From the UHGV virus genome UHGV-0388326: DNA of 39,034 nucleotides, one strand, 5' to 3'. The position numbers and the translations under genes were made by a program. How positions within the stretch are numbered: position 1 is the first letter of the stretch; each line of letters starts with the position of its first letter. Source of the stretch: a virus. The notes beneath the pieces are model-generated. The model was not told the origin of the DNA, searched no databases, and worked only from the letters and a program-made list of their open reading frames with translations. This document shows, piece by piece, positions 343-39,034 of this stretch.

Positions 343-673
343 ATCAGCAGCAGAGCGCAAAGCCGCTCAGAGAGCCAGACAAGCTGCATCTGGTGTGCGT
401 AAGCTGGAAATTGTGCTTGATGCTCAGGAAATTGAAATGCTGGAGCGTAACTGTGCCACGCGTCGCCCCGGGCGTGCGCCTTACGAATTTGGTGAGTATA
501 TAGCGTTACTGATCCGCCAGGATGATGCACGCGTGCGCGGGCGTATAAAATCGATCAGCAGAAAACGTTGCGGTAAGTGCGGCGGGAGAGTTCCAGTTAA
601 TTCATGCCCGTGTAATGGTGACTCGCAATGCTGGGTGACTAAAGGCTGGCATGAAACGAAATTAATAGTGTGA
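335..673 (+). CDS. hypothetical protein with C-terminal Cys cluster (putative zinc finger); positional candidate for late-gene regulator
   Basis: ATG 335 overlaps upstream stop (ATGGCTAA); C-terminus RKRCGKCGG...CPCNGDSQCW; last gene before terminator and terS. Confidence 0.45.
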   Translation: MAKSAAERKAAQRARQAASGVRKLEIVLDAQEIEMLERNCATRRPGRAPYEFGEYIALLIRQDDARVRGRIKSISRKRCGKCGGRVPVNSCPCNGDSQCWVTKGWHETKLIV

Positions 674-681
674 CATGTCAC
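670..681. repeat. 12-bp perfect palindrome GTGACATGTCAC (copy 1 of 3)
   Basis: overlaps stop codon of gene 335-673. Confidence 0.7.
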
Positions 682-1388: not shown

Positions 1389-2860
1389 CAGATACAGCGT
1401 TATCTCCTGAAGAGCAGTTGATCGAGGATATTGCAGGGTTCACTCACGATCCGCTTGGCTATGCCCTCTATGCGTTCCCGTGGGGGGAAGAGGGGACTGA
1501 ACTGGCACATGCTACCGGCCCACGTCAGTGGCAGACTGATGCGTTCCGAGAGATACGTGATCACCTGCAGAATCCAGAGACGCGCTATCAGCCGCTTATG
1601 CTGGCACGTGCTTCGGGTCACGGTATTGGTAAATCCGCATTCATCTCAATGCTGATCAACTGGGGCATGTCCACTTGCGAGGATTGTAAGGTCGTGGTGA
1701 CCGCCAACACCGACAACCAGCTACGAACGAAGACCTGGCCGGAAATTATCAAGTGGTCGAACCTTGCTATCACGAAAGACTGGTTTACCTGTACCGCTAC
1801 CGCGATGTACAGCAATGACCCAGGGCACGACAAGCGGTGGCGGGCTGACGCAATACCCTGGTCTGAGCACAACACTGAGGCATTCGCCGGACTACACAAC
1901 GAGCGCAAACGCATCATCGTGGTATTCGATGAAGCGTCGAACATTGCCGATCTGGTGTGGGAGGTAGCAGAGGGTGCGCTGACGGACGAAGACACCGAAA
2001 TCATCTGGGTGGCGTTCGGAAACCCGACGCGTAATACCGGACGTTTCCGAGAATGTTTCCGCAAATATAAACACCGCTGGAAAACTGCGCAGATTGACAG
2101 CCGGACGGTGGAAGGCACTAACAAACAGCAGTTGCAGAAATGGGTTGATGACTACGGGGAAGACAGCGACTTCGTTAAAATCCGTGTGCGTGGCATATTC
2201 CCTGATGCATCTGAATTGCAGTTTATCCCTACCGGTCTTACTGACGAGGCAATGAAACGGGTGGTAACCGCTGCGCAGGTGGCACATGCTCCTGTGATAA
2301 TCGGCGTTGACCCGGCATACTCCGGCGTTGATGACGCGGTGATATATCTGCGGCAGGGGCTGCACAGTAAGGTGCTGTGGACTGGCAACAAGACTACCGA
2401 CGATCTGATTATGGCGAAGCGTATCGCTGACTTTGAAGACCAGTATCAGGCTGACGCAGTGTTCATCGACTTCGGTTACGGTACTGGCCTGAAGTCAATC
2501 GGTGACGGCTGGGGGCGCACATGGCAACTTGTTCCGTTCGGTGGCGCGTCAACTGACCCTCAGATGCTCAACAAGCGCGGGGAGATGTTCAACTCATGCA
2601 AGACATGGCTGAGGCTGGGCGGGATGCTGGATGACCAGGAAACAGCGGACGACCTGTCGGCGGCAGAGTATAAAGTTCGAGTGGACGGTAAAATCGTTAT
2701 CGAACCGAAGGAAGATATCAAGGAGCGGCTTGGGCGTTCTCCTGGTAAAGGCGATGCGCTACTGCTGACGTTTGCTTTCCCTGTGTCAAAGCGTCTGCGA
2801 ATTCCCGGGCAGCAGAACCAGCAAGGCAAGGCCATCACAGATTACGATCCCTATGCTTAA
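1385..2860 (+). CDS. terL: terminase large subunit
   Basis: 491 aa; Walker A-like ARASGHGIGKS, acidic VVFDEAS motif, C-terminal nuclease-like region; GTG start overlapping terS stop. Confidence 0.9.
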   Translation: MTDTALSPEEQLIEDIAGFTHDPLGYALYAFPWGEEGTELAHATGPRQWQTDAFREIRDHLQNPETRYQPLMLARASGHGIGKSAFISMLINWGMSTCEDCKVVVTANTDNQLRTKTWPEIIKWSNLAITKDWFTCTATAMYSNDPGHDKRWRADAIPWSEHNTEAFAGLHNERKRIIVVFDEASNIADLVWEVAEGALTDEDTEIIWVAFGNPTRNTGRFRECFRKYKHRWKTAQIDSRTVEGTNKQQLQKWVDDYGEDSDFVKIRVRGIFPDASELQFIPTGLTDEAMKRVVTAAQVAHAPVIIGVDPAYSGVDDAVIYLRQGLHSKVLWTGNKTTDDLIMAKRIADFEDQYQADAVFIDFGYGTGLKSIGDGWGRTWQLVPFGGASTDPQMLNKRGEMFNSCKTWLRLGGMLDDQETADDLSAAEYKVRVDGKIVIEPKEDIKERLGRSPGKGDALLLTFAFPVSKRLRIPGQQNQQGKAITDYDPYA

Positions 2861-2910
2861 TCCGCTAGTGGGGATAATGTCGTTGATATCCTCTGATGAG
2901 GATAAAACAA

Positions 2911-2930
2911 AGCCAGCTCATCGGCTGGCT
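2911..2930. terminator. hairpin between convergent terL and minus-strand gene, likely bidirectional terminator
   Basis: AGCCAGC-TCATCG-GCTGGCT; U-run on minus strand (TTGTTTT), weaker GTTTG on plus. Confidence 0.5.
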
Positions 2931-2934
2931 GTTT

Positions 2935-2946
2935 GTGACATGTCAC
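2935..2946. repeat. 12-bp perfect palindrome GTGACATGTCAC (copy 2 of 3)
   Basis: immediately after terL terminator hairpin. Confidence 0.7.
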
Positions 2947-2950
2947 GGTG

Positions 2951-3289
2951 TTATTGCTCGCTTAACTTCTGCTTCAGCAAGTAACCTTCGAGCATCCAGA
3001 TTTTGTTTACAGCATTCTGCCGGGCAATCTTCCGACCAATTTCTGCATCAAAGTTTTCCGGGCTTGCACAGGCGCTCTCTCCGGTGACGGTGAAGCCATT
3101 TTGTAGAGTCAATACACAAAATGTCAGCAGAGCCAAACTGTCGTGATAGTCATCGCCAGTTGCAATAGCTCCATCAGCAGCAGTGAAGTACGTTTCCGCA
3201 AGAATAATGCTTTCGATATGGTCTGGCGTAACGCGCGGGGCGGTTTTGCCTTTCTCAACGATTTCTTTTTCGATTTGCTGGTCGTTCAT
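2951..3289 (-). CDS. conserved hypothetical phage protein (112 aa)
   Basis: ORF with GGTGAG RBS upstream of ATG 3289; family not confidently recognised (possibly N4 gp49/Sf6 gp66-like, low certainty). Confidence 0.6.
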   Translation of the reverse strand: MNDQQIEKEIVEKGKTAPRVTPDHIESIILAETYFTAADGAIATGDDYHDSLALLTFCVLTLQNGFTVTGESACASPENFDAEIGRKIARQNAVNKIWMLEGYLLKQKLSEQ

Positions 3290-5892: not shown

Positions 5893-6185
5893 CAGATTAC
5901 GAAGATGATCAACTGAAAGAAGAAAACGCCCGTAAGCAACGTGACATGGCACAGCGTGAAATTGATGACATTCGCTTTGTCATGAGCAGTGAACAGGGGC
6001 GTCGCGTTGTCTGGTCGGTGCTGGAGAAAGGCCGTGTGTTTTCCGCTATCTCACCGATGGACGCTATGGCAATGGCATTTAATGAGGGGCAACGCAATCT
6101 GGCGCTGGAACTGTTTCAGCGCGTTATGGCGCATTGCCCTGAACAGTATTTGAAGATGGCCAAAGAGGCCAGTGAACAGGAGTGA
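5889..6185 (+). CDS. hypothetical head-module protein
   Basis: 98 aa ORF translationally coupled between portal and scaffold. Confidence 0.5.
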   Translation: MTDYEDDQLKEENARKQRDMAQREIDDIRFVMSSEQGRRVVWSVLEKGRVFSAISPMDAMAMAFNEGQRNLALELFQRVMAHCPEQYLKMAKEASEQE

Positions 6186-19994: not shown

Positions 19995-20003
19995 GGAACA
20001 ACA

Positions 20004-28496: not shown

Positions 28497-29747
28497 GTGC
28501 TTACCGATACAAAATTAAAAAACCTCAAGCCGCAGGACAAACTGTACAAGGTCTCCGATCGTGACGGGCTGTATGTAGCTGTGCTTACGTCAGGCACGGT
28601 CTCGTTTCGCTATGACTACCGTATCAACGGTCGCCGCGAAACACTGGTAATCGGGCAGTATGGGCGTGACGGTATCAGCCTGGCAGAAGCGCGAGAAGAA
28701 CTGATTGCTGCAAAGAAGCTGCTTAAAGCAGGTCAGTCGCCGGCTACGGCTAAACGTGACGGTATCAAAAAGATTCGTGGTGCCGAGACGTTTGCGGTAC
28801 ATACCGACAGTTATATGAAACACGTCATCTTGGCTGACAGTACCCGCGCAATGAAGCAGGCGGTGATCGACCGTGACATACTTCCGGTTCTTGGCAACAA
28901 AATGATGGCTGAAATTACCACATCGATGGTTCGTGATTTGTGTGACCGGATTGTCGAACGCGGTGGTCGGGCAACAGCAGTACAGGCCAGGGAGATCATC
29001 AGCAGCGTATACCGTCACGCCAATGACCGTGGTCATGGTTTGTTTAATCCTGCGGCTGATATTAAGCCTTCATCTATCGCCATATTTAAACCACGAGAGC
29101 GAACGCTGACACCAGAAGAAATTGGTCTTTTCTTCCGCACGCTGGATGCCATTGGTGCTATGGGCACTATGAAAATGGCTTTAAAACTGCTGCTTATCAC
29201 TATGGTTCGTAAGGGCGAATTCACCAATGCAACGTGGGATGAAATAGATTTTAAAAAATGGACATGGACAATTCCTTCAGACCGCATGAAGGGAAGCCGG
29301 GCGCATGTTATTTACCTGCCTAAACAGGCACAGGATATATTGGTCGGGTTGCAGATGTGCGCTGGTGGAAGTGAATATCTGGTTCCTGGTCGTTACAATT
29401 TCCGGAAGCCATTATCTAATGCCGCGCTGAACTCTCTGATCGACAGAACGGTGAAAATAATAAATGAAGATGGTGAGCATATTCAGGATTTTACCGTACA
29501 CGATATGCGCCGTACAGCCAGTACGTTGTTGCATGAGGCTGGTTATCCTTCAGACTGGATTGAAAAGGCTCTGGCACATGAGCAGAAAGGTGTGCGCGCC
29601 GTATATAACAAAGCGGAATACGCCAGACAGCGCGCCTACATGTTGCAGCAGTGGGCCGATATGATTGATTCCTGGATTAACGGCGAGCATACGGATCTGA
29701 TTCCGTTCTCCCCGTCGAAGTTTGAGAAGTGGATGGCGGGGGAATAA
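28497..29747 (+). CDS. int: tyrosine integrase
   Basis: 416 aa; N-terminus LTDTKLKNLKPQDKLYKVSDRDGLYV typical of P4-type integrases; C-terminal catalytic region with conserved R...HxxR...Y pattern; GTG start. Confidence 0.85.
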   Translation: MLTDTKLKNLKPQDKLYKVSDRDGLYVAVLTSGTVSFRYDYRINGRRETLVIGQYGRDGISLAEAREELIAAKKLLKAGQSPATAKRDGIKKIRGAETFAVHTDSYMKHVILADSTRAMKQAVIDRDILPVLGNKMMAEITTSMVRDLCDRIVERGGRATAVQAREIISSVYRHANDRGHGLFNPAADIKPSSIAIFKPRERTLTPEEIGLFFRTLDAIGAMGTMKMALKLLLITMVRKGEFTNATWDEIDFKKWTWTIPSDRMKGSRAHVIYLPKQAQDILVGLQMCAGGSEYLVPGRYNFRKPLSNAALNSLIDRTVKIINEDGEHIQDFTVHDMRRTASTLLHEAGYPSDWIEKALAHEQKGVRAVYNKAEYARQRAYMLQQWADMIDSWINGEHTDLIPFSPSKFEKWMAGE

Positions 29748-29750
29748 CGT

Positions 29751-29945
29751 TTAATTATTCTGCTGATTTTCTTCCATCTCGGCTTCTGCTGCCAGTGATT
29801 CAATTTTGTCTGCGAATATTGCTGACAGCGTTGCAAATTCAGCATCAGTGACAGCGGGAATTGGAACAAACCTGATCCCGCTGTGTGCAAGCATGTTTGC
29901 AGTTTCAAGGCATTTCCTTAAATCTGCTGGTGATGCCCGGTTCAT
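29751..29945 (-). CDS. hypothetical protein (64 aa), last gene of early-left operon
   Basis: ATG overlaps methyltransferase stop (ATGA); acidic C-terminus. Confidence 0.45.
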   Translation of the reverse strand: MNRASPADLRKCLETANMLAHSGIRFVPIPAVTDAEFATLSAIFADKIESLAAEAEMEENQQNN

Positions 29946-30592
29946 GCTGCACGCTCCCGCCCCTGGTTGTCTGTTGGTGACAGCGGAGCATTGCTGAATG
30001 CATTTGTTAATCTGGCAATATCCAACGCGTATCCAGGGTGTAGTTGCACTGCCGGGTCTTCGCACTGATTACCCCAAACATCGAAGCCATGAGACGACTG
30101 GCGGGCGAACAGTTCAATGCGAGAAACATCGCCTAACAATTGCACAAGTTTTTCACGAACGACATCTGGTTTTCTTGAATGCTCAAGCCGCGGTGCGGTA
30201 AATGACTGAACGATCCCTGCATTAATGCGCGGAGGTAGTTTTCCCTTTACTGCAAACAGGCAATCTTCACTATTGGCGCGAGTCATGTGACCCATACCCA
30301 TAACCAGTTTATCTGGTTGTCGACTACCACATTTTATCCACGTGAATCCCTTCATGGTCATCAGACGGAATCCCCAGGCTTCAACAACTTTTAGTGCTTC
30401 GAGTGGTTGTGTTGGCACCCACCACATGGCCAACAGACAGTTTTCATCGGCCAAATCCCACACAGGAAGGCGGCAGATATCCATCACACTCATAACCGGA
30501 TATTTAAAACCGGCACCGCGATTACCATCTGCGGCTTTGTCCCGGTATACCCAGGGTGGATCTGCATAGATTAGTGTGTATTTCTTAGTCAT
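29942..30592 (-). CDS. DNA N6-adenine methyltransferase, MT-A70-like
   Basis: 216 aa; N-terminal IYADPPW motif characteristic of MT-A70 family. Confidence 0.7.
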   Translation of the reverse strand: MTKKYTLIYADPPWVYRDKAADGNRGAGFKYPVMSVMDICRLPVWDLADENCLLAMWWVPTQPLEALKVVEAWGFRLMTMKGFTWIKCGSRQPDKLVMGMGHMTRANSEDCLFAVKGKLPPRINAGIVQSFTAPRLEHSRKPDVVREKLVQLLGDVSRIELFARQSSHGFDVWGNQCEDPAVQLHPGYALDIARLTNAFSNAPLSPTDNQGRERAA

Positions 30593-30836
30593 AAACCACC
30601 CCGCAACATCCTATACCGCTATAGTCGCCACGGCGAAGGCCGTTACTTTTTGTGATACATTGGTCCCTGCGAACCGCGATCCTTGCACGCTCAACATCAC
30701 CAGAAGCAACATCCATACACTGAAGCCAAAGGTGAGCGGCAATGCGGAACTGCCCTTTTTTCTCTCTTTCAATCGCGCGTTTTTCGATCTCTATCGCCGC
30801 AGGAGTAACGGCGACAATCTTTGACGGACTGCGCAT
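30585..30836 (-). CDS. small regulator, PerC-like (tentative)
   Basis: pattern KKGQFRIAAHLWLQCM...ERARIAVRRDQC resembles PerC-family proteins as recalled; start uncertain (30836 or 30851). Confidence 0.4.
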   Translation of the reverse strand: MRSPSKIVAVTPAAIEIEKRAIEREKKGQFRIAAHLWLQCMDVASGDVERARIAVRRDQCITKSNGLRRGDYSGIGCCGVVYD

Positions 30837-30993
30837 TGAAACCTTGTTCATGTGATATTTTTCAAGTCGGCTTAACTTTCTCACTTAATCCAACCCTCTC
30901 TGAAAATTAATGCCAGCAGATAAAGCCATGCTGAAACAGAGGCCAGGAATAAGTACCATCCTGACCATTTGCTCCAGTGCCTTAGCAGCACAC

Positions 30994-31242
30994 TCATGCT
31001 GCGTTGCTCACAGGACGATATACACGTTGCTGAACAGGAGGCTTTTTACCCTGGAACTCTGCCGGGCTTGCTGCCTGACGTTCATCAAGCCAACGCTCAA
31101 CTTCATCACGGTTCCATGCGCAGCGTTTATCGGTGATATACCAGCGTTTAGGAAATTCCCCTGCGCGCTCCATACGGTCGATAGTGCTCCATGACAGTGG
31201 CACCACCGCCAGGAGTTCCTTCTTACCTAATGCACCTTTCAT
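30994..31242 (-). CDS. AlpA-family HTH protein (excisionase/regulator-like)
   Basis: 82 aa; LSWSTIDRMERAGEFPKRWYITDKRCAWNRDEVERWL matches AlpA/Xis-like HTH pattern; GAGG RBS. Confidence 0.65.
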   Translation of the reverse strand: MKGALGKKELLAVVPLSWSTIDRMERAGEFPKRWYITDKRCAWNRDEVERWLDERQAASPAEFQGKKPPVQQRVYRPVSNAA

Positions 31243-31291: not shown

Positions 31292-32233
31292 TTACATAGA
31301 TGTTTCGTTTAATTCTTCCCGACGAACGCTGTAAACGTCGGTGGCTTTTGCCAGCAGTTCGTCATCATCTGAAAGTTTTTGTGCAATGTATTTGTAAGCC
31401 TTATCCAGTTCGGAGACAGTGCTGTAATTCATCGCTGCGCTGGTAAAGGCCATCAGCATTTCTTCTGGATCACGGCTATCCGCTTTACGAGTTTGCTCAT
31501 CAGGCTTTTTCACTGGTTTAGCGTTGATCAGACTGTTCATTCCCGCAGCAGTGGTCGTTTGCGGAGTAATGTCTCGCTCAACGCGCGGTGCCGTTTCCTG
31601 TAACTCGTCTGGTGTGTAGACGCCCATGATTACGTCAGGACAGTGCAAGCGAGACCAGCGTTTTGTCGCAAGGTATGCGAGTTGTTGTTTCGGATCACTG
31701 GCCCAAAGTGTGGAGTTTCTTACCTGTGCTTGAGACAGCATTAACTCAAGCACTCGAGGTTGATCCTCGCCCTTCATGGTTGCCCATACGCGAACACCGC
31801 AGCCTTCTTCGTCTTTTAGAGTCCAGCCTGGTGCGATATATGGATTGCCGTTTTTGGATGTTTTCTCAACAAACTTACCGATCACGCGTTCCCACGGCCC
31901 GAACCACTCGTAGTTGATGCGATCTTTTGTTGGCGACATCGTTGAGATAACTGCGTTTACTAATTGGGCTTCATAACCTAGCGTGCCGTTCACAACATGG
32001 GTTTTCTGAGCCACGGCAAACGGGTTCATTCCCCACTGCGCAGCCTGCATTGCCACGGCCATGCAATCAGCTGGTTTCCCGGCGAGGTGCGCCGGTACCG
32101 TTACGCGGCTTTGCGCCATTACCTCGGCGAATTTCATCAGTTGGTTCAAGCCGTCTGGGCTGAAAATAGTTGCAGCAGTTCCAGCGATTGCTGTGTCTAC
32201 TGGTGCGTTGATGTTTGCGATGTCGTTGCTCAT
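31292..32233 (-). CDS. single-strand annealing protein (RecT/Red-beta superfamily, tentative)
   Basis: about 313 aa directly downstream of exonuclease gene with ATGA overlap; weak resemblance to Bet/RecT core. Confidence 0.5.
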   Translation of the reverse strand: MSNDIANINAPVDTAIAGTAATIFSPDGLNQLMKFAEVMAQSRVTVPAHLAGKPADCMAVAMQAAQWGMNPFAVAQKTHVVNGTLGYEAQLVNAVISTMSPTKDRINYEWFGPWERVIGKFVEKTSKNGNPYIAPGWTLKDEEGCGVRVWATMKGEDQPRVLELMLSQAQVRNSTLWASDPKQQLAYLATKRWSRLHCPDVIMGVYTPDELQETAPRVERDITPQTTTAAGMNSLINAKPVKKPDEQTRKADSRDPEEMLMAFTSAAMNYSTVSELDKAYKYIAQKLSDDDELLAKATDVYSVRREELNETSM

Positions 32234-33051
32234 ATGTACATATCCTGTTTGCGTGCCCACTCAGGGCGTTTAATGATTTCCACACCGCCCCATTCATCAT
32301 TTATGCGGCATTCGTGATAGGTATTCAGATCCCGGCGGAACAGAGCGTTCCCGGCATCGACATCCGGCGCATCCAGCTCGAACACGCGTACCGGATACCG
32401 ACCACAATCAATGCTTTCGCTCACGGCAAGAAAGAAAAAACCATGCGGCTGACCAGTAACCCTCATTGCGCCTTCGCGGTACATTGCGTCCTGCACGTGG
32501 TAGCGGAATTCCTCGATGTGGCGTGCAAAACGGTCCATATCTGCAACCTTTTTTACGTCGACGATCACGTTGTGCTCGTTCAGCCATTTGTCTGGACGAA
32601 TGCGGCACAACTCACCAGTCTCTTCATCATTCCAGTACATTGATGCTTCGCAGTAACCAGGTGCTTCCAGCATCCAGCGTGCCGCCGGGTGAGCCATTGC
32701 GCTATCACGCATCAGCTCCAGTTTCCGCCACTGCTCGGCATCAAGTACCGTAATCCCCATATCCGCTACATCACGAAGAAATGCTTCTTCGTCAGCTTTA
32801 CCTTGTTTCGTCCGACGATCGAACTTCGGTGAAACAATGAAGCGTTTGTCGAATTCTCCAGGCTCCAGAAGCAGACAGTGCAATGCGGTTCCAATATCCA
32901 GTGCAGACTTTTTCTCTTCGTCTTCTGGTGCTGCCTGGACCCATTTAAGAAGCGCCGGATTCTTGGCAACCATGTCCAGTTGCGACTTACTCACGCCGTC
33001 ACCGGCGTGGTAGTCTTCGTTGCTGATGTCGAAATAAATTCCCGGTTTCAT
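32230..33051 (-). CDS. exonuclease, PD-(D/E)XK superfamily (exonuclease VIII/RecE-like)
   Basis: 273 aa; N-terminus GIYFDISNEDYHAG and downstream D...E.K pattern; paired with SSAP. Confidence 0.6.
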   Translation of the reverse strand: MKPGIYFDISNEDYHAGDGVSKSQLDMVAKNPALLKWVQAAPEDEEKKSALDIGTALHCLLLEPGEFDKRFIVSPKFDRRTKQGKADEEAFLRDVADMGITVLDAEQWRKLELMRDSAMAHPAARWMLEAPGYCEASMYWNDEETGELCRIRPDKWLNEHNVIVDVKKVADMDRFARHIEEFRYHVQDAMYREGAMRVTGQPHGFFFLAVSESIDCGRYPVRVFELDAPDVDAGNALFRRDLNTYHECRINDEWGGVEIIKRPEWARKQDMYI

Positions 33052-33521: not shown

Positions 33522-33598
33522 TTACCGTTGAGGTAATAATTATGCGTATCTGGTTTGATGTCAATAGATATGAGTTAAAAAAATTACCCGTTAGGTAA
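33522..33598. promoter_or_regulatory. OL-like region with two TTACC-N5-GGTAA operators
   Basis: 33522-33536 TTACCGTTGAGGTAA; 33584-33598 TTACCCGTTAGGTAA; between repressor terminator and early-left operon. Confidence 0.6.
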
Positions 33599-33611: not shown

Positions 33612-33634
33612 AAAAAAGCCGCCATAAGGCGGCT
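33612..33634 (-). terminator. Rho-independent terminator downstream of repressor gene
   Basis: minus strand AGCCGCC-TTAT-GGCGGCT followed by TTTTTTA. Confidence 0.65.
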
Positions 33635-33655
33635 TACTTACTGAAAAATATGATT

Positions 33656-34240
33656 TTATTGTTTGTTTTTTTCGTTCTGGTTGATGACAAATTCAATGTA
33701 ACTTTCGATCTTTGCCTTCTCTGTTTCAGGTAACAATGCGTAGCGCGAGCGGTCATAGTTGATAGTTGCAGGATCATGCGGATGAATCAGTAGTTCATAT
33801 CCGTGACGCCCGAATGCAGATGCAACATTCTCCAGGGTGGAAATGGAAACGCTGACCTCATTGTTTAACAGGCGGCTTATTGTCACCTGGGCGACGCCGG
33901 ATGCGCGGTGAAGTTTTCCCTGAGTTGAAAGGTCGCGGCTTTCACTCATCCAGCGTTCCAGGTTGTGAGCCGCCAGTTGACCAATGTCGCTTGGTCCGAC
34001 AGGCTGAAAACCTTCCTGAGAAAGCGAGCGATCGATATCAAGCCAGTTACGGGGTTTATTGGCGGCAGCTTCAATTTTTCGCGCAACCTGGTCGCCGATA
34101 ACCTTCTTGCCAAGAGCCCAGCGGTTTACCAGATTTGCCTGAGTTCCAAGTTTTTCAGCCATCCGCGTCTGAACACCATTGAATTCACGGTCGATCAAGT
34201 CGTTGAGATTTTGCCTGCGGACGTCCTGGATACTTTTCAT
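33656..34240 (-). CDS. prophage repressor candidate, tandem HTH (XRE-like) domains, no peptidase S24 domain evident
   Basis: 194 aa; HTH-like segments MAEKLGTQANLVNRWALGKK and ASGVAQVTISRLLNNEVSVSISTLENVASAFG; located between operator arrays in lambda cI position. Confidence 0.6.
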   Translation of the reverse strand: MKSIQDVRRQNLNDLIDREFNGVQTRMAEKLGTQANLVNRWALGKKVIGDQVARKIEAAANKPRNWLDIDRSLSQEGFQPVGPSDIGQLAAHNLERWMSESRDLSTQGKLHRASGVAQVTISRLLNNEVSVSISTLENVASAFGRHGYELLIHPHDPATINYDRSRYALLPETEKAKIESYIEFVINQNEKNKQ

Positions 34241-37115: not shown

Positions 37116-37745
37116 ATGGACGGTAATATCAAAGGGTTAGTTTCCGCCGGGCATGAGATGGCTTCGGAACTGAAAGCAGAATGTGGTGCCGTTGATATGC
37201 GCAGTGTGGCAAAGCTGATCAGCGATTTGGCAACGCAACTGGAAGTGCAACTGGTGCGTGCTAATGCGCTGGCGGCGGAGAATGCGGGGCTGAAGGCTGG
37301 GGCTATGTATTTCTCATATGGCTCTGAATTTAGTTTCGAGTGTCACAAAACTGCTGAGGAGGCTATCGCTGCTGCTGAGGCTGCAATTGACGACTATAGA
37401 GGCGATGCTTGCGATGGATGGAGCGAAGAGGTCGAAAGCATTTGCTGGGGGGTAATTATTCAGCAGGCAACCAAGGTCGGTGAACGCAAGAAGAGGAAAT
37501 GCGACAGAGTATCACCATGGATTGAAAGAGTTTGTGATTATGAGCTTCGACCTAATGTCGAAACCCCAGCCACCGACGCTTTCCTGGCTGAAGTTCGGGC
37601 GCAGGGGGTGGATATGGCTCGTAACGCGATGATTGATTTTGTTGATGGTGAAGTTGGGCCAAACAAGAACGTTCCGGGGCTGATTAGAGGCGCAGAGATA
37701 TGCGTAAGTATTGCTGAACAGCTTCGCAAAGGAGGCAACCAGTGA
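37116..37745 (+). CDS. hypothetical protein
   Basis: 209 aa ORF in nin-like region. Confidence 0.5.
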   Translation: MDGNIKGLVSAGHEMASELKAECGAVDMRSVAKLISDLATQLEVQLVRANALAAENAGLKAGAMYFSYGSEFSFECHKTAEEAIAAAEAAIDDYRGDACDGWSEEVESICWGVIIQQATKVGERKKRKCDRVSPWIERVCDYELRPNVETPATDAFLAEVRAQGVDMARNAMIDFVDGEVGPNKNVPGLIRGAEICVSIAEQLRKGGNQ

Positions 37746-38365
37746 GCGAAATTAATTACCAGGCACTGCGTGAGGCGGCGGAACGTGCAATTCCAGCAAT
37801 GGAACGCCTGTTAATGTTGCCAGCTGATGATGATTTGTTAAGTGAACAGGAACTTAAAGATTACGGTGTGGATATTGATGCGCTCAACGCCTTCAAATTT
37901 CTGGCCGGACCAGAAACCGTGCTGGCACTACTGGATGAACGGGAAAGAAACCAGCAATACATCAAACTCCGTGACCAGGAGAACGAGGATATTGCTCTAA
38001 CGGTAGGGAAGCTGCGTGTTGAGCTGGAAGCCGCAGAGAAGCGCAACGCAAAATTACAAAGCGAGAATGCATACATCCGCAACCGGTTCAAAGAACTGGA
38101 CCTGTTAATGGGGAAAAACATTCTGGTCATGCAGGCTGCCATTATCGAATGGCAGGCAACTGGCGACGCTAAGAGCGGACTGGCATGGATTTATAACACA
38201 CTGTTTGGCCCTGGCGAATTACCGGACGAATCTGAGAAAGATGCTCAGGCCTACTTTAATCGCAAATATGCACCGATTGACGAAAAGCTTATGGCGCTTC
38301 ACAAGTGGTTTTGGGAACAAAGTGAAGCTGAGCGCGCTGCTGGCATTCGCATCAAAGGAGAGTGA
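37742..38365 (+). CDS. Ead/Ea22-like protein
   Basis: N-terminus MSEINYQALREAAERA matches recalled Ea22-like start. Confidence 0.55.
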   Translation: MSEINYQALREAAERAIPAMERLLMLPADDDLLSEQELKDYGVDIDALNAFKFLAGPETVLALLDERERNQQYIKLRDQENEDIALTVGKLRVELEAAEKRNAKLQSENAYIRNRFKELDLLMGKNILVMQAAIIEWQATGDAKSGLAWIYNTLFGPGELPDESEKDAQAYFNRKYAPIDEKLMALHKWFWEQSEAERAAGIRIKGE

Positions 38366-38366
38366 T

Positions 38367-38564
38367 ATGGATAAAAACACCACTGCTTACTGGAGTCTTT
38401 CACTTGATACCGAATGTCCCAAATGTGGTCACAATTTCGATCTGCTTTGTGATCCAGATTTCTGGGAGTTTTCTGGAGCTAAACAGGCATGTGAAGAAAT
38501 AAAAGGTTACGAAACATGCTGTCCAGAATGTAACCATGAATTTAAAACAGATTTCGTGTATTGA
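38367..38564 (+). CDS. small zinc-ribbon protein
   Basis: 65 aa; CPKCGH...CPECNH; ATG 38367 with GGAG RBS (track ORF opens at 38205). Confidence 0.5.
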   Translation: MDKNTTAYWSLSLDTECPKCGHNFDLLCDPDFWEFSGAKQACEEIKGYETCCPECNHEFKTDFVY

Positions 38565-38574
38565 GGCATAACAA

Positions 38575-39034
38575 ATGACCACTATTACCAAAGAACGTAT
38601 TGAATTGTTCATTAAAAATCCGCTTGAAAACGGGCTTACTCGTGGCGAACAAATGGAACTGGCACGGATTGCGCTGGCATCGCTGGAAGCAGAGCCTGTA
38701 AGCCAAACTTACAACTTGCCAGAATTAATCGAAGGCATGGAAGTTTCCATTGATGTAAGCACTTGTGATGCTGATTTAGGTAATCGCTATTTCGGTACCG
38801 TCACCGAGGCGTTAGAACTTGATACAGCCAAGAATGGTTACATCCTCCTGGTTCAGGACGCAGAGCCAAACTTCGATGTAAATGGCAACTCTCCGGGAAC
38901 TCCGGATGGTTGGATAAGCTGTAGTGAGCGAATGCCGGATAAGTTAATTCCGGTAATTGTCATGTATGAAGACGGTGAAATGTGGTCTGCAATGTGGAAT
39001 GGCAATCGCTGGGATGATGGCACCGAATATCCGG
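38575..39034 (+). CDS. DUF551-like protein, 3'-truncated by window end
   Basis: ATG 38575 with GAGG RBS; open to window end; C-terminal W...SERMPDKLIPVIVMYEDGEMWSAMWNG pattern typical of DUF551; not in ORF track because incomplete. Confidence 0.55.
   Translation, partial: MTTITKERIELFIKNPLENGLTRGEQMELARIALASLEAEPVSQTYNLPELIEGMEVSIDVSTCDADLGNRYFGTVTEALELDTAKNGYILLVQDAEPNFDVNGNSPGTPDGWISCSERMPDKLIPVIVMYEDGEMWSAMWNGNRWDDGTEYP

What the first reader, a model, noticed from the sequence alone, without database searches (positions are those of the whole stretch)
29751..30592. MT-A70-type adenine methyltransferase in the early-left operon, translationally coupled to a small unknown protein
The DPPW-motif methyltransferase is an orphan (no restriction partner seen) and is expressed early, consistent with self-protection against host restriction or with regulation. 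Its stop overlaps the start of a 64-aa acidic protein (ATGA), suggesting a functional pair. The target site is unknown; the CATG-containing palindrome GTGACATGTCAC is one speculative candidate.
Basis: partly seen in the sequence, partly recalled or inferred. Interest (0 to 1): 0.4.

Follow-up and report, generated by a model that had tools for sequence, protein, structure and literature searches.

The report
Known phage adenine methylase plus Orf63-like gene
This is the already-annotated MT-A70 methyltransferase of a phiV10-like E. coli prophage, followed by a homologue of lambda's small Orf63 protein; the two genes are neighbours that nature often separates, so the finding is ordinary, although the enzyme family's true substrate (GATC in DNA or 16S rRNA) is still disputed.

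Summary
A 216-aa MT-A70 methyltransferase with a DPPW motif lies at 29942-30592 (-). Its stop overlaps (ATGA) the start of a 64-aa acidic ORF at 29751-29945 (-).

The window is a phiV10-like Uetakevirus, and these genes are phiV10 p33 and p32. The same methylase allele (at least 95% nt identity) is in 538 of 5,426 complete E. coli genomes.

The small protein is not unknown. It is DUF1382 and is 50% identical to lambda Orf63, which has a solved structure and a pro-lytic phenotype.

The "functional pair" reading is not supported:
- 167 of the 538 genomes lack a contiguous DUF1382; in sampled cases a phosphatase gene sits there with the same 4-nt overlap.
- Only 1 of 80 species-level homologue loci has DUF1382 nearby.
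- Lambda has Orf63 and no methylase beside it.
- About half of adjacent phiV10 gene pairs overlap.

The enzyme is 82% identical to Stx-phage M.EcoPA8orf6770P. That family is reported both as GATC-specific (M.EcoGV; Serratia phage BZS1 p32) and as a 16S rRNA methylase that needs PNB-2, which this window lacks.

My best reading is an orphan, Dam-like GATC DNA adenine methylase. The proposed CATG palindrome target has no support. Novelty: already known.

The parts
29942..30592 (-). MT-A70 family N6-adenine methyltransferase, 216 aa (equivalent to phiV10 p33). It is a bare catalytic core with a roughly 40-aa variable C-terminal tail.
   Evidence: Pfam PF05063 E 3.8e-22. PHROG 359 'DNA methyltransferase' E 4.7e-120. 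PADLOC MTase_II E 4.7e-77. AlphaFold model pLDDT 72.7, with METTL3 as top Foldseek hit at TM about 0.65. 82% identical over aa 1-187 to M.EcoPA8orf6770P. 40% identical to the GATC-specific BZS1 p32.
30551..30562 (-). Codons for the catalytic motif IV, DPPW (residues 11-14).
   Evidence: Read directly from the sequence. P12 and W14 are invariant and D11 and P13 are at least 90% conserved in 17 homologues; in the 45-sequence set W14 stays invariant and D11 and P12 are at least 90% conserved.
29751..29945 (-). DUF1382 / lambda Orf63-like protein, 64 aa (equivalent to phiV10 p32). Its start overlaps the methyltransferase stop as ATGA.
   Evidence: Pfam PF07131 E 1.3e-30 over the full profile. PHROG 292. 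PDB 8DSB E 5.8e-13. 50% identity to lambda orf63 over 62 aa. 49% identity to phage PA8 gp4.
30585..30884 (-). PerC-family small regulator (equivalent to phiV10 p34). By analogy with phiV10 the likely start is the ATG at about 30851. Its stop overlaps the methyltransferase start by 8 nt.
   Evidence: Pfam PerC E 2.5e-7. PHROG 868 E 1.8e-61. Overlap sequence ATGACTAA. A PerC-like gene lies upstream on the same strand in 22 of the 78 homologue loci analysed.
30881..30997 (-). 38-aa membrane protein (equivalent to phiV10 p35), in the same operon.
   Evidence: PHROG 17484 E 4.7e-27; phiV10 annotation.
30994..31242 (-). AlpA-family regulator and probable excisionase (equivalent to phiV10 p36), in the same operon.
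   Evidence: Pfam Phage_AlpA E 3.1e-5; PHROG 66 E 2e-16.
28497..29747 (+). P4-type tyrosine integrase, convergent with the operon. Its stop codon lies 3 nt from the DUF1382 stop codon.
   Evidence: Pfam Phage_integrase, Arm-DNA-bind_3 and Phage_int_M. Sequence. Related prophages sit next to guaA.
33536..33564 (-). Sigma-70 promoter-like site (TTGACA, 17 nt spacer, AATTAT; 10 of 12 matches). It could drive the leftward operon that ends with the methyltransferase and DUF1382.
   Evidence: Consensus scan only. It lies just downstream of the terminator-like hairpin at 33616-33635 (-) that follows the repressor ORF at 33656-34240. Not tested experimentally.

Best explanation
The window is a phiV10-like temperate podovirus (Uetakevirus). 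The finding covers two independent accessory genes at the far end of its leftward operon, next to the integrase.

The first gene is a bare-core MT-A70 (beta-class) methyltransferase with an intact DPPW/SRKP catalytic set and no restriction partner. I think it most likely methylates N6 of adenine in GATC on DNA, as a phage Dam mimic. It would act on phage DNA, and possibly host DNA, when the operon is transcribed.

The second gene is a homologue of lambda Orf63. Lambda Orf63 is a small dimeric protein that binds an amphipathic helix and shifts the lysis-lysogeny balance. It acts without any methyltransferase.

The ATGA overlap is the ordinary tight packing of this operon, not a mark of a two-subunit enzyme.

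Shown here: gene identities, family membership, fold, synteny statistics, and the absence of PNB-2 and of any nuclease. Inferred: GATC specificity, DNA as the substrate, and the timing of expression.
For: Identity:
- The region is 98-99% identical in nucleotides to phiV10, ZX5 and EC.W1-9. These records annotate an adenine methylase, a DUF1382 protein and a PerC-like activator.
- RefSeq gives the same three names in E. coli chromosomes.

Enzyme:
- Full-length MT-A70 match.
- Catalytic and SAM-site residues are conserved in 17-45 homologues: W14, N107, D110, S139, K141, P142 and E160 are invariant in both sets and D11 is at least 90% conserved.
- The fold is METTL3/MTA1-like.

GATC on DNA:
- The Serratia phage BZS1 p32 MT-A70 enzyme, 40% identical, made plasmid DNA from a dam- host MboI-resistant and DpnI-sensitive (PMC7556043).
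- The same paper cites the Tn1549 MT-A70 enzyme as GATC-specific.
- M.EcoGV is listed with GATC specificity (PMC6602927 Table 3). PMC10810198 calls it 'highly similar' to M.EcoPA8orf6770P, which is 82% identical to the window enzyme.
- PADLOC's Type II methyltransferase model matches at E 4.7e-77.

Independence of the two genes:
- The methyltransferase allele is in 538 of 5,426 E. coli genomes, the DUF1382 allele in 373, and the two are contiguous in 371.
- In strain ML35 a Ser/Thr phosphatase gene follows the same methyltransferase with the same 4-nt overlap.
- DUF1382 lies within 2.5 kb of the methyltransferase in only 1 of 80 species-representative loci.
- Lambda, 933W and BP-4795 have DUF1382 after DUF1317/orf60a with no methyltransferase.
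- 24 of 45 same-strand gene pairs in phiV10 overlap.
Against: - No activity data exist for this protein or for phiV10 p33.
- The purified 82%-identical enzyme showed no GATC-specific and almost no DNA methyltransferase activity in vitro. With PNB-2 it preferred 16S rRNA by more than 13-fold (PMC10810198).
- The GATC result for M.EcoGV came from plasmid overexpression, which can give off-target methylation (caveat raised in PMC10810198).
- I could not compare the M.EcoGV sequence directly, because Fang et al. 2012 is not held.
- All solved MT-A70 relatives work as hetero-oligomers, so a partner may be needed.
- GATC is only mildly under-represented in the window (145 observed, 195 expected), which says nothing either way.
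- The methyltransferase-DUF1382 order recurs in two unrelated phage groups, phiV10-like and Stx2a. This leaves some room for a functional link.
Confidence: 0.6

Rival explanations
1. The enzyme is mainly an RNA methyltransferase, like its Stx-phage homologue. With a partner protein it methylates 16S rRNA and tunes translation and spontaneous prophage induction.
For: - 82% identity over aa 1-187 to M.EcoPA8orf6770P.
- That enzyme in complex with PNB-2 prefers 16S rRNA and 30S subunits and raises spontaneous induction (PMC10810198).
- A follow-up preprint reports candidate sites at 16S positions 832, 1098, 1100, 1132 and 1190.
- The nearest solved structures by fold search are the RNA methyltransferase METTL3.
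Against: - PNB-2, said to confer the rRNA preference, is absent from the window (tblastn).
- The upstream PerC-like protein is not homologous to PNB-2 (hhalign probability 0.6%).
- PNB-2 accompanies only 2 of the 78 homologue loci analysed.
- The C-terminal tail that the authors link to PNB-2 binding differs here after residue 187.
- The proposed benefit, protecting ribosomes from Shiga toxin, cannot apply to a phage without stx.
- The rRNA claim rests on a SAM-consumption assay and nanopore signal differences.
Confidence: 0.17
2. The methyltransferase and the DUF1382 protein form a functional pair. The Orf63-like dimer would bind the methyltransferase, for example its C-terminal helix, and direct or regulate it.
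For: - ATGA coupling.
- The same gene order occurs in the Stx2a phages PA8 and F723, where the genes overlap by 41 nt.
- This DUF1382 allele is almost always next to this methyltransferase: 371 of 373 genomes.
- Lambda Orf63 binds an amphipathic helix, and the model has a short helix at residues 192-199 of the tail.
- The PA8 co-expression plasmid's reverse primer ends at the gp4 (DUF1382) stop, so gp4 was present in the published 'two-subunit' preparation.
Against: - 167 of 538 E. coli genomes keep the methyltransferase, tail included, without a contiguous DUF1382.
- A Salmonella relative has the same tail followed by an unrelated 59-aa gene.
- Only 1 of 80 loci from other species has DUF1382 nearby.
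- Lambda Orf63 is active with no methyltransferase.
- The methyltransferase is 82% identical between the two phage groups but DUF1382 only 49%, and the junctions differ, which suggests separate modules.
- Overlapping neighbours are the norm in this genome.
Confidence: 0.07
3. The enzyme is an anti-restriction methylase with a non-GATC target, such as the CATG-containing palindrome GTGACATGTCAC.
For: The enzyme has no restriction partner. The palindrome is strongly over-represented: 3 exact copies against 0.07 expected.
Against: - A 12-bp site present only 3 times would protect nothing.
- All three exact copies sit in intergenic spots at transcription-unit boundaries, which fits a regulator binding site.
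- Tested relatives are GATC-specific. BZS1 p32 did not block Hin1II (CATG) cleavage (PMC7556043).
- CATG and ACATGT counts are close to expectation.
Confidence: 0.04

Closest known systems
phiV10 p33 (adenine methylase) and p32 (DUF1382 protein), with the same genes in ZX5, EC.W1-9, TL-2011b and hundreds of E. coli prophages
   Same: The same genes, order and overlaps, at 96-100% nucleotide identity. They are already annotated as MT-A70 methyltransferase, DUF1382 and PerC-family regulator.
   Different: Nothing of substance. The window phage differs from phiV10 elsewhere, in the tail spike, the O-antigen acyltransferase and the right-end accessory genes.
M.EcoPA8orf6770P (gp5) of Stx2a phage PA8, with PNB-2 (gp6) and gp4
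   Same: The catalytic core is 82% identical over 187 aa, including DPPW. A DUF1382 homologue lies immediately downstream. Both sit at the integrase-proximal end of the leftward operon.
   Different: There is no PNB-2 here; a non-homologous PerC-like gene is upstream instead. The C-terminal tail is unrelated. The phage carries no stx, so the reported rRNA targeting and ribosome protection may not carry over.
Prokaryotic Dam-like MT-A70 methyltransferases: Serratia phage BZS1 p32, Tn1549 M.EfaBMDam and M.EcoGV
   Same: Same family and size (about 200-220 aa), orphan status and position near the integrase. In BZS1 a gene annotated in the GenBank record as an ANR-family regulator lies directly upstream.
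   Different: Only 40% identity to BZS1 p32, which carries a 23-aa insertion in the loop that is short here at about residues 88-101. Specificity is not tested for this protein.
Lambda Orf63 (exo-xis region; PDB 8DSB)
   Same: 50% identity over the full length. E36 and K47 are conserved. Same size and acidic C-terminus.
   Different: It follows a methyltransferase here rather than orf60a, and there is no orf61. Position 54 is Glu here, and the K54E change abolished lambda Orf63's pro-lytic effect, so the phenotype may differ.

Membership tests
MT-A70 family (Pfam PF05063), beta-class N6-adenine methyltransferases | Full-length match to the family profile above the curated cutoff | tested here: met
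   79.5 bits against a cutoff of 23.9; profile positions 1-172 of 172.
MT-A70 family (Pfam PF05063), beta-class N6-adenine methyltransferases | Catalytic motif IV, DPPW, plus conserved C-terminal SAM-site motifs | tested here: met
   DPPW at residues 11-14. The NSEDC, SRKP and IELF blocks are conserved in 17-45 homologues and align with MTA1 and METTL3.
MT-A70 family (Pfam PF05063), beta-class N6-adenine methyltransferases | METTL3-like Rossmann fold | tested here: met
   AlphaFold pTM 0.74. Foldseek top hits are METTL3 (E 9e-13, TM 0.64-0.66) and MTA1.
MT-A70 family (Pfam PF05063), beta-class N6-adenine methyltransferases | SAM-dependent methyl transfer to adenine N6 | not testable with these tools
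   Needs enzyme assays or methylome sequencing.
Dam-like (GATC) prokaryotic MT-A70 subgroup | Homology to a member with experimentally shown GATC specificity | tested here: met
   40% identity, E 2e-48, to BZS1 p32 (PMC7556043). The link to M.EcoGV is indirect, through the 82%-identical PA8 enzyme (PMC10810198).
Dam-like (GATC) prokaryotic MT-A70 subgroup | Methylation of GATC in DNA | not testable with these tools
   GATC counts in the window are uninformative.
M.EcoPA8orf6770P-PNB-2 16S rRNA methyltransferase holoenzyme | Orthologous catalytic subunit | tested here: met
   82% identity over aa 1-187.
M.EcoPA8orf6770P-PNB-2 16S rRNA methyltransferase holoenzyme | PNB-2 specificity subunit encoded directly upstream | tested here: not met
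   No tblastn hit in the window. The upstream PerC-like protein is unrelated to PNB-2 (hhalign probability 0.6%).
M.EcoPA8orf6770P-PNB-2 16S rRNA methyltransferase holoenzyme | STEC-type C-terminal roughly 27 residues, which the authors link to PNB-2 | tested here: not met
   Similarity ends at residue 187 and the tails are unrelated.
M.EcoPA8orf6770P-PNB-2 16S rRNA methyltransferase holoenzyme | Carried by an Stx-encoding lambdoid phage | tested here: not met
   The window is a phiV10-like podovirus with no stx.
Lambda Orf63 / DUF1382 | Full-length match to PF07131 and to the solved Orf63 sequence | tested here: met
   E 1.3e-30 over positions 1-60 of 60. 50% identity to lambda Orf63. PDB 8DSB.
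Lambda Orf63 / DUF1382 | Position in the exo-xis block between orf60a and orf61 | tested here: not met
   Here it lies between the methyltransferase and the convergent integrase.
Lambda Orf63 / DUF1382 | Pro-lytic activity that depends on K54 | tested here: inconclusive
   The window protein has E54. K54E was inactive in lambda, but Glu is the commoner residue in the family.
Type II restriction-modification system | Cognate restriction endonuclease gene next to the methyltransferase | tested here: not met
   The neighbours are PerC-like, DUF1382 and integrase genes. No nuclease domain in the variable regions, no PADLOC hit other than MTase_II, and none in the phiV10 annotation.

The most novel reading that the evidence does not exclude
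The small MT-A70 core needs a neighbouring small protein to choose its substrate, as PNB-2 does in Stx phages. In phiV10-like phages that role would fall to the Orf63-like DUF1382 dimer or to the PerC-like protein encoded directly upstream. This would tie the unexplained pro-lytic effects of exo-xis proteins, or the PerC/ANR regulators, to nucleic-acid methylation.
Probability: 0.08. Interest if true: 0.6.

Novelty: already known. Interest (0 to 1): 0.18.

Why it matters
As a discovery it matters little. The genes are annotated in phiV10 and in about 10% of complete E. coli genomes, and both families have published experimental work.

The residual interest is that the family's substrate is contested: GATC in DNA or 16S rRNA. 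The phiV10-like allele is a natural version that lacks both PNB-2 and Shiga toxin, which makes it a clean comparator. If it methylates GATC on its own, rRNA targeting in Stx phages is a derived property conferred by PNB-2. If it does not, the 'Dam-like' labels for hundreds of prophage genes in databases are doubtful.

Tried and rejected
- The viral-contig scan with the methyltransferase returned 80 near-identical (97-100%) phiV10-like copies. It was useless for synteny, so I switched to species-dereplicated genomes.
- I tested whether the upstream PerC-like protein is a hidden PNB-2 homologue. hhalign gave probability 0.6%, so I rejected the idea.
- I tested whether the methyltransferase's C-terminal tail co-varies with DUF1382. 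It does not: the same tail occurs with an unrelated 59-aa gene in Salmonella and with a phosphatase gene in E. coli ML35.
- I counted 4-mer and 6-mer palindromes to look for an avoided or favoured target. GATC has a ratio of 0.74 and CATG 0.90. Nothing was diagnostic.
- I tried to read Fang et al. 2012 for M.EcoGV. The paper is not held, so I relied on PMC6602927 Table 3 and PMC10810198.
- NCBIfam has no model for the methyltransferase or for DUF1382.
- BZS1 p33 and p31 show no BLAST similarity to the window's PerC-like and DUF1382 proteins.

Full report
**What is in the sequence**

The methyltransferase runs from 30592 to 29942 on the minus strand and is 216 aa. It begins MTKKYTLIYADPPW. The next ORF runs from 29945 to 29751 and is 64 aa, with an acidic C-terminus. 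Its ATG shares two bases with the methyltransferase TGA (ATGA), and a GGGAG lies 8 nt upstream.

The methyltransferase start is itself overlapped, by 8 nt, by the stop of the upstream gene (ATGACTAA). A tyrosine integrase converges on the operon from the other strand, and its stop codon is 3 nt from the stop of the small ORF.

**What the window is**

The region is 98-99% identical in nucleotides to Escherichia phage phiV10 and its relatives ZX5, EC.W1-9 and TL-2011b. The whole window is a circular permutation of phiV10 at 95-98% identity, apart from three replaced segments.

In phiV10 these genes are p34 (PerC-family activator), p33 (DNA methyltransferase) and p32 (DUF1382 family protein). RefSeq uses the same three names in E. 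coli chromosomes. The feature is therefore already annotated.

**The methyltransferase**

- It matches Pfam MT-A70 over the whole profile (E 3.8e-22), PHROG 359 and PADLOC's Type II methyltransferase model (E 4.7e-77).
- The DPPW motif and the NSEDC, SRKP and IELF blocks are invariant or nearly so in 17 to 45 homologues.
- An AlphaFold model (pLDDT 72.7, pTM 0.74) is closest to METTL3 and then to the ciliate DNA methyltransferase MTA1.
- The protein is a bare catalytic core. Residues 95-108 and the last 14 residues are predicted with low confidence.
- Homologues at 60-87% identity are widespread in Enterobacterales. Most are about 195-200 aa, and their C-terminal tails vary.

**The small protein**

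It is not unknown. It matches DUF1382 over the full profile (E 1.3e-30) and the solved chain 8DSB. It is 50% identical to lambda Orf63 across 62 residues.

[quoted passage not shown] It promotes lytic over lysogenic development, binds an amphipathic helix in a hydrophobic cleft, and showed no binding to a test dsDNA (PMC10869804). E36 and K47 are conserved in the window protein. Position 54 is Glu, and K54E abolished lambda Orf63's effect.

**Is it a functional pair?**

Five tests say no.

1. Overlaps are the rule in this genome. In the phiV10 annotation 24 of 45 same-strand neighbouring pairs overlap, 12 of them by 4 nt.
2. E. coli genomes separate the two genes. Among 5,426 complete genomes the methyltransferase allele (at least 95% nt identity) is in 538 and the DUF1382 allele in 373. 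The two are contiguous in 371. So 167 genomes keep the methyltransferase without a contiguous DUF1382. In the sampled rows the homology break is within 1-3 nt of the methyltransferase stop codon, and most carry a Ser/Thr phosphatase gene downstream. In strain ML35 that gene overlaps the methyltransferase by the same 4 nt.
3. Other species lack the pairing. In 80 species-representative genomes with a homologue, a DUF1382 gene lies within 2.5 kb in only one, a Raoultella strain.
4. DUF1382 works elsewhere without a methyltransferase. In lambda, 933W, VT2-Sakai and BP-4795 it follows DUF1317/orf60a.
5. The tail does not track DUF1382. A Salmonella relative carries a methyltransferase with the same C-terminal tail but is followed by an unrelated 59-aa gene.

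One fact points the other way. The methyltransferase-then-DUF1382 order also occurs in the Stx2a phages PA8 and F723, where the two genes overlap by 41 nt. There, however, the methyltransferase is 82% identical to the window enzyme and the DUF1382 only 49%, and the junctions differ. That looks like module shuffling in an accessory region similar to lambda's exo-xis region.

**What the enzyme does**

The published evidence on relatives conflicts.

For GATC in DNA:
- The MT-A70 enzyme p32 of Serratia phage BZS1 is 40% identical. It made plasmid DNA from a dam- host MboI-resistant and DpnI-sensitive, while HinfI and Hin1II (CATG) still cut (PMC7556043).
- That paper also cites the Tn1549 MT-A70 enzyme as GATC-specific.
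- M.EcoGV is listed with GATC specificity (PMC6602927 Table 3).

For 16S rRNA:
- M.EcoPA8orf6770P of Stx phage PA8 is 82% identical over residues 1-187. Purified alone, it had almost no activity on DNA, including unmethylated GATC DNA.
- With PNB-2, the product of the gene directly upstream, it preferred 16S rRNA and 30S subunits. The intact gene raised spontaneous prophage induction (PMC10810198).
- A preprint adds candidate 16S positions and proposes that the enzyme protects ribosomes from Shiga toxin.

The window lacks PNB-2. Its upstream PerC-like protein is unrelated to PNB-2, its C-terminal tail differs from the PA8 enzyme's, and the phage has no stx. PNB-2 accompanies only 2 of the 78 homologue loci analysed.

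I therefore favour a Dam-like GATC DNA methyltransferase as the general activity of this clade. rRNA targeting would be a property that PNB-2 adds in Stx phages. This is inference. I put about 0.55-0.6 on DNA/GATC and about 0.17 on RNA.

**Orphan status and expression**

No nuclease domain appears in the neighbours, in the segments that differ from phiV10 or in the phiV10 annotation.

A promoter-like site lies at 33536-33564 (-), just past the terminator-like hairpin that follows the repressor ORF. The scan found no promoter-like or terminator-like site on the minus strand between that promoter and 29751. This fits a single leftward operon: two small ORFs, an exonuclease, RecT, AlpA, a 38-aa membrane protein, the PerC-like gene, the methyltransferase and DUF1382. 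Early expression is plausible but not shown.

**The palindrome**

GTGACATGTCAC occurs three times exactly, against 0.07 expected. All three copies are intergenic and sit at transcription-unit boundaries. This fits a protein binding site. Nothing links it to the methyltransferase, and a tested relative did not protect CATG.

**Verdict**

The small protein has a known family and a solved structure. Novelty is 'already known'. Interest is low. The one open point is the disputed substrate of the enzyme family, for which this PNB-2-free allele would be a useful test case.

Noticed in passing
window 670-681, 2935-2946, 20421-20432 (exact copies); 5941-5952 (one mismatch): The 12-bp palindrome GTGACATGTCAC occurs 3 times exactly, against 0.07 expected. 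All exact copies are intergenic and lie at transcription-unit boundaries: before the small terminase gene, just after the terminator hairpin that follows the large terminase gene, and just before another terminator hairpin. The phiV10 GenBank record was linearised inside the first copy. This is probably a regulator binding site.
   Followed up: partly
window 30585-30884 (-); loci L086-L165; L171 11704-11886: A PerC-like gene lies upstream of the MT-A70 gene on the same strand in 22 of the 78 species-representative loci analysed, directly adjacent in 14. This holds in both the roughly 70%-identity and the roughly 43%-identity methyltransferase clades. In the GATC-specific phage BZS1, the gene directly upstream is annotated in the GenBank record as an ANR-family regulator, but Pfam and BLAST gave no match for it here. 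This association is much more frequent than the one with DUF1382 and has no explanation yet.
   Followed up: partly
L004 (phage PA8) 2056-2268 (-), with the primers quoted in PMC10810198 Methods: The reverse primer of the published PNB-2 plus methyltransferase co-expression plasmid ends at the stop of gp4 (…TSPIA*), which is the DUF1382/Orf63 homologue. The 'two-subunit' preparation therefore also encoded this roughly 8-kDa protein, which the paper does not mention.
   Followed up: partly
window 19997-22230, 23500-26260, 37297-39034: These three segments do not align with phiV10. They include the C-terminal part of the tail spike (ORF 22974-25085), a different Acyl_transf_3 O-antigen acyltransferase (25119-26210, minus strand), a Bro-N protein, and an Ead/Ea22-like gene near the right end. 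This suggests a different host serotype specificity.
   Followed up: partly
window 31292-33051 (-): The exonuclease (32230-33051) and RecT (31292-32260) are separate, overlapping ORFs here. phiV10 p37 is annotated as a single RecE-RecT fusion of 1,761 nt.
   Followed up: no
window 29745-29753: The stop codons of the integrase (+) and the DUF1382 gene (-) are 3 nt apart. No terminator-like hairpin lies between the convergent genes, so leftward transcripts would run antisense into int.
   Followed up: no
L002 (Stx2a_F723) 2801-3004 compared with L004 (PA8) 2851-3282: The gene upstream of the identical methyltransferase differs between two Stx2a phages. It is 67 aa in F723 and 143 aa (PNB-2) in PA8, and the two share only the last roughly 21 residues. 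Even among Stx phages, then, the proposed specificity subunit is replaced.
   Followed up: partly
L167 2325-2504 and L169 1843-2001: In Salmonella and Enterobacter relatives a DUF1317 gene (the lambda orf60a family) sits upstream of the methyltransferase. This operon end therefore behaves like lambda's exo-xis accessory region, with the methyltransferase as one interchangeable cassette.
   Followed up: no
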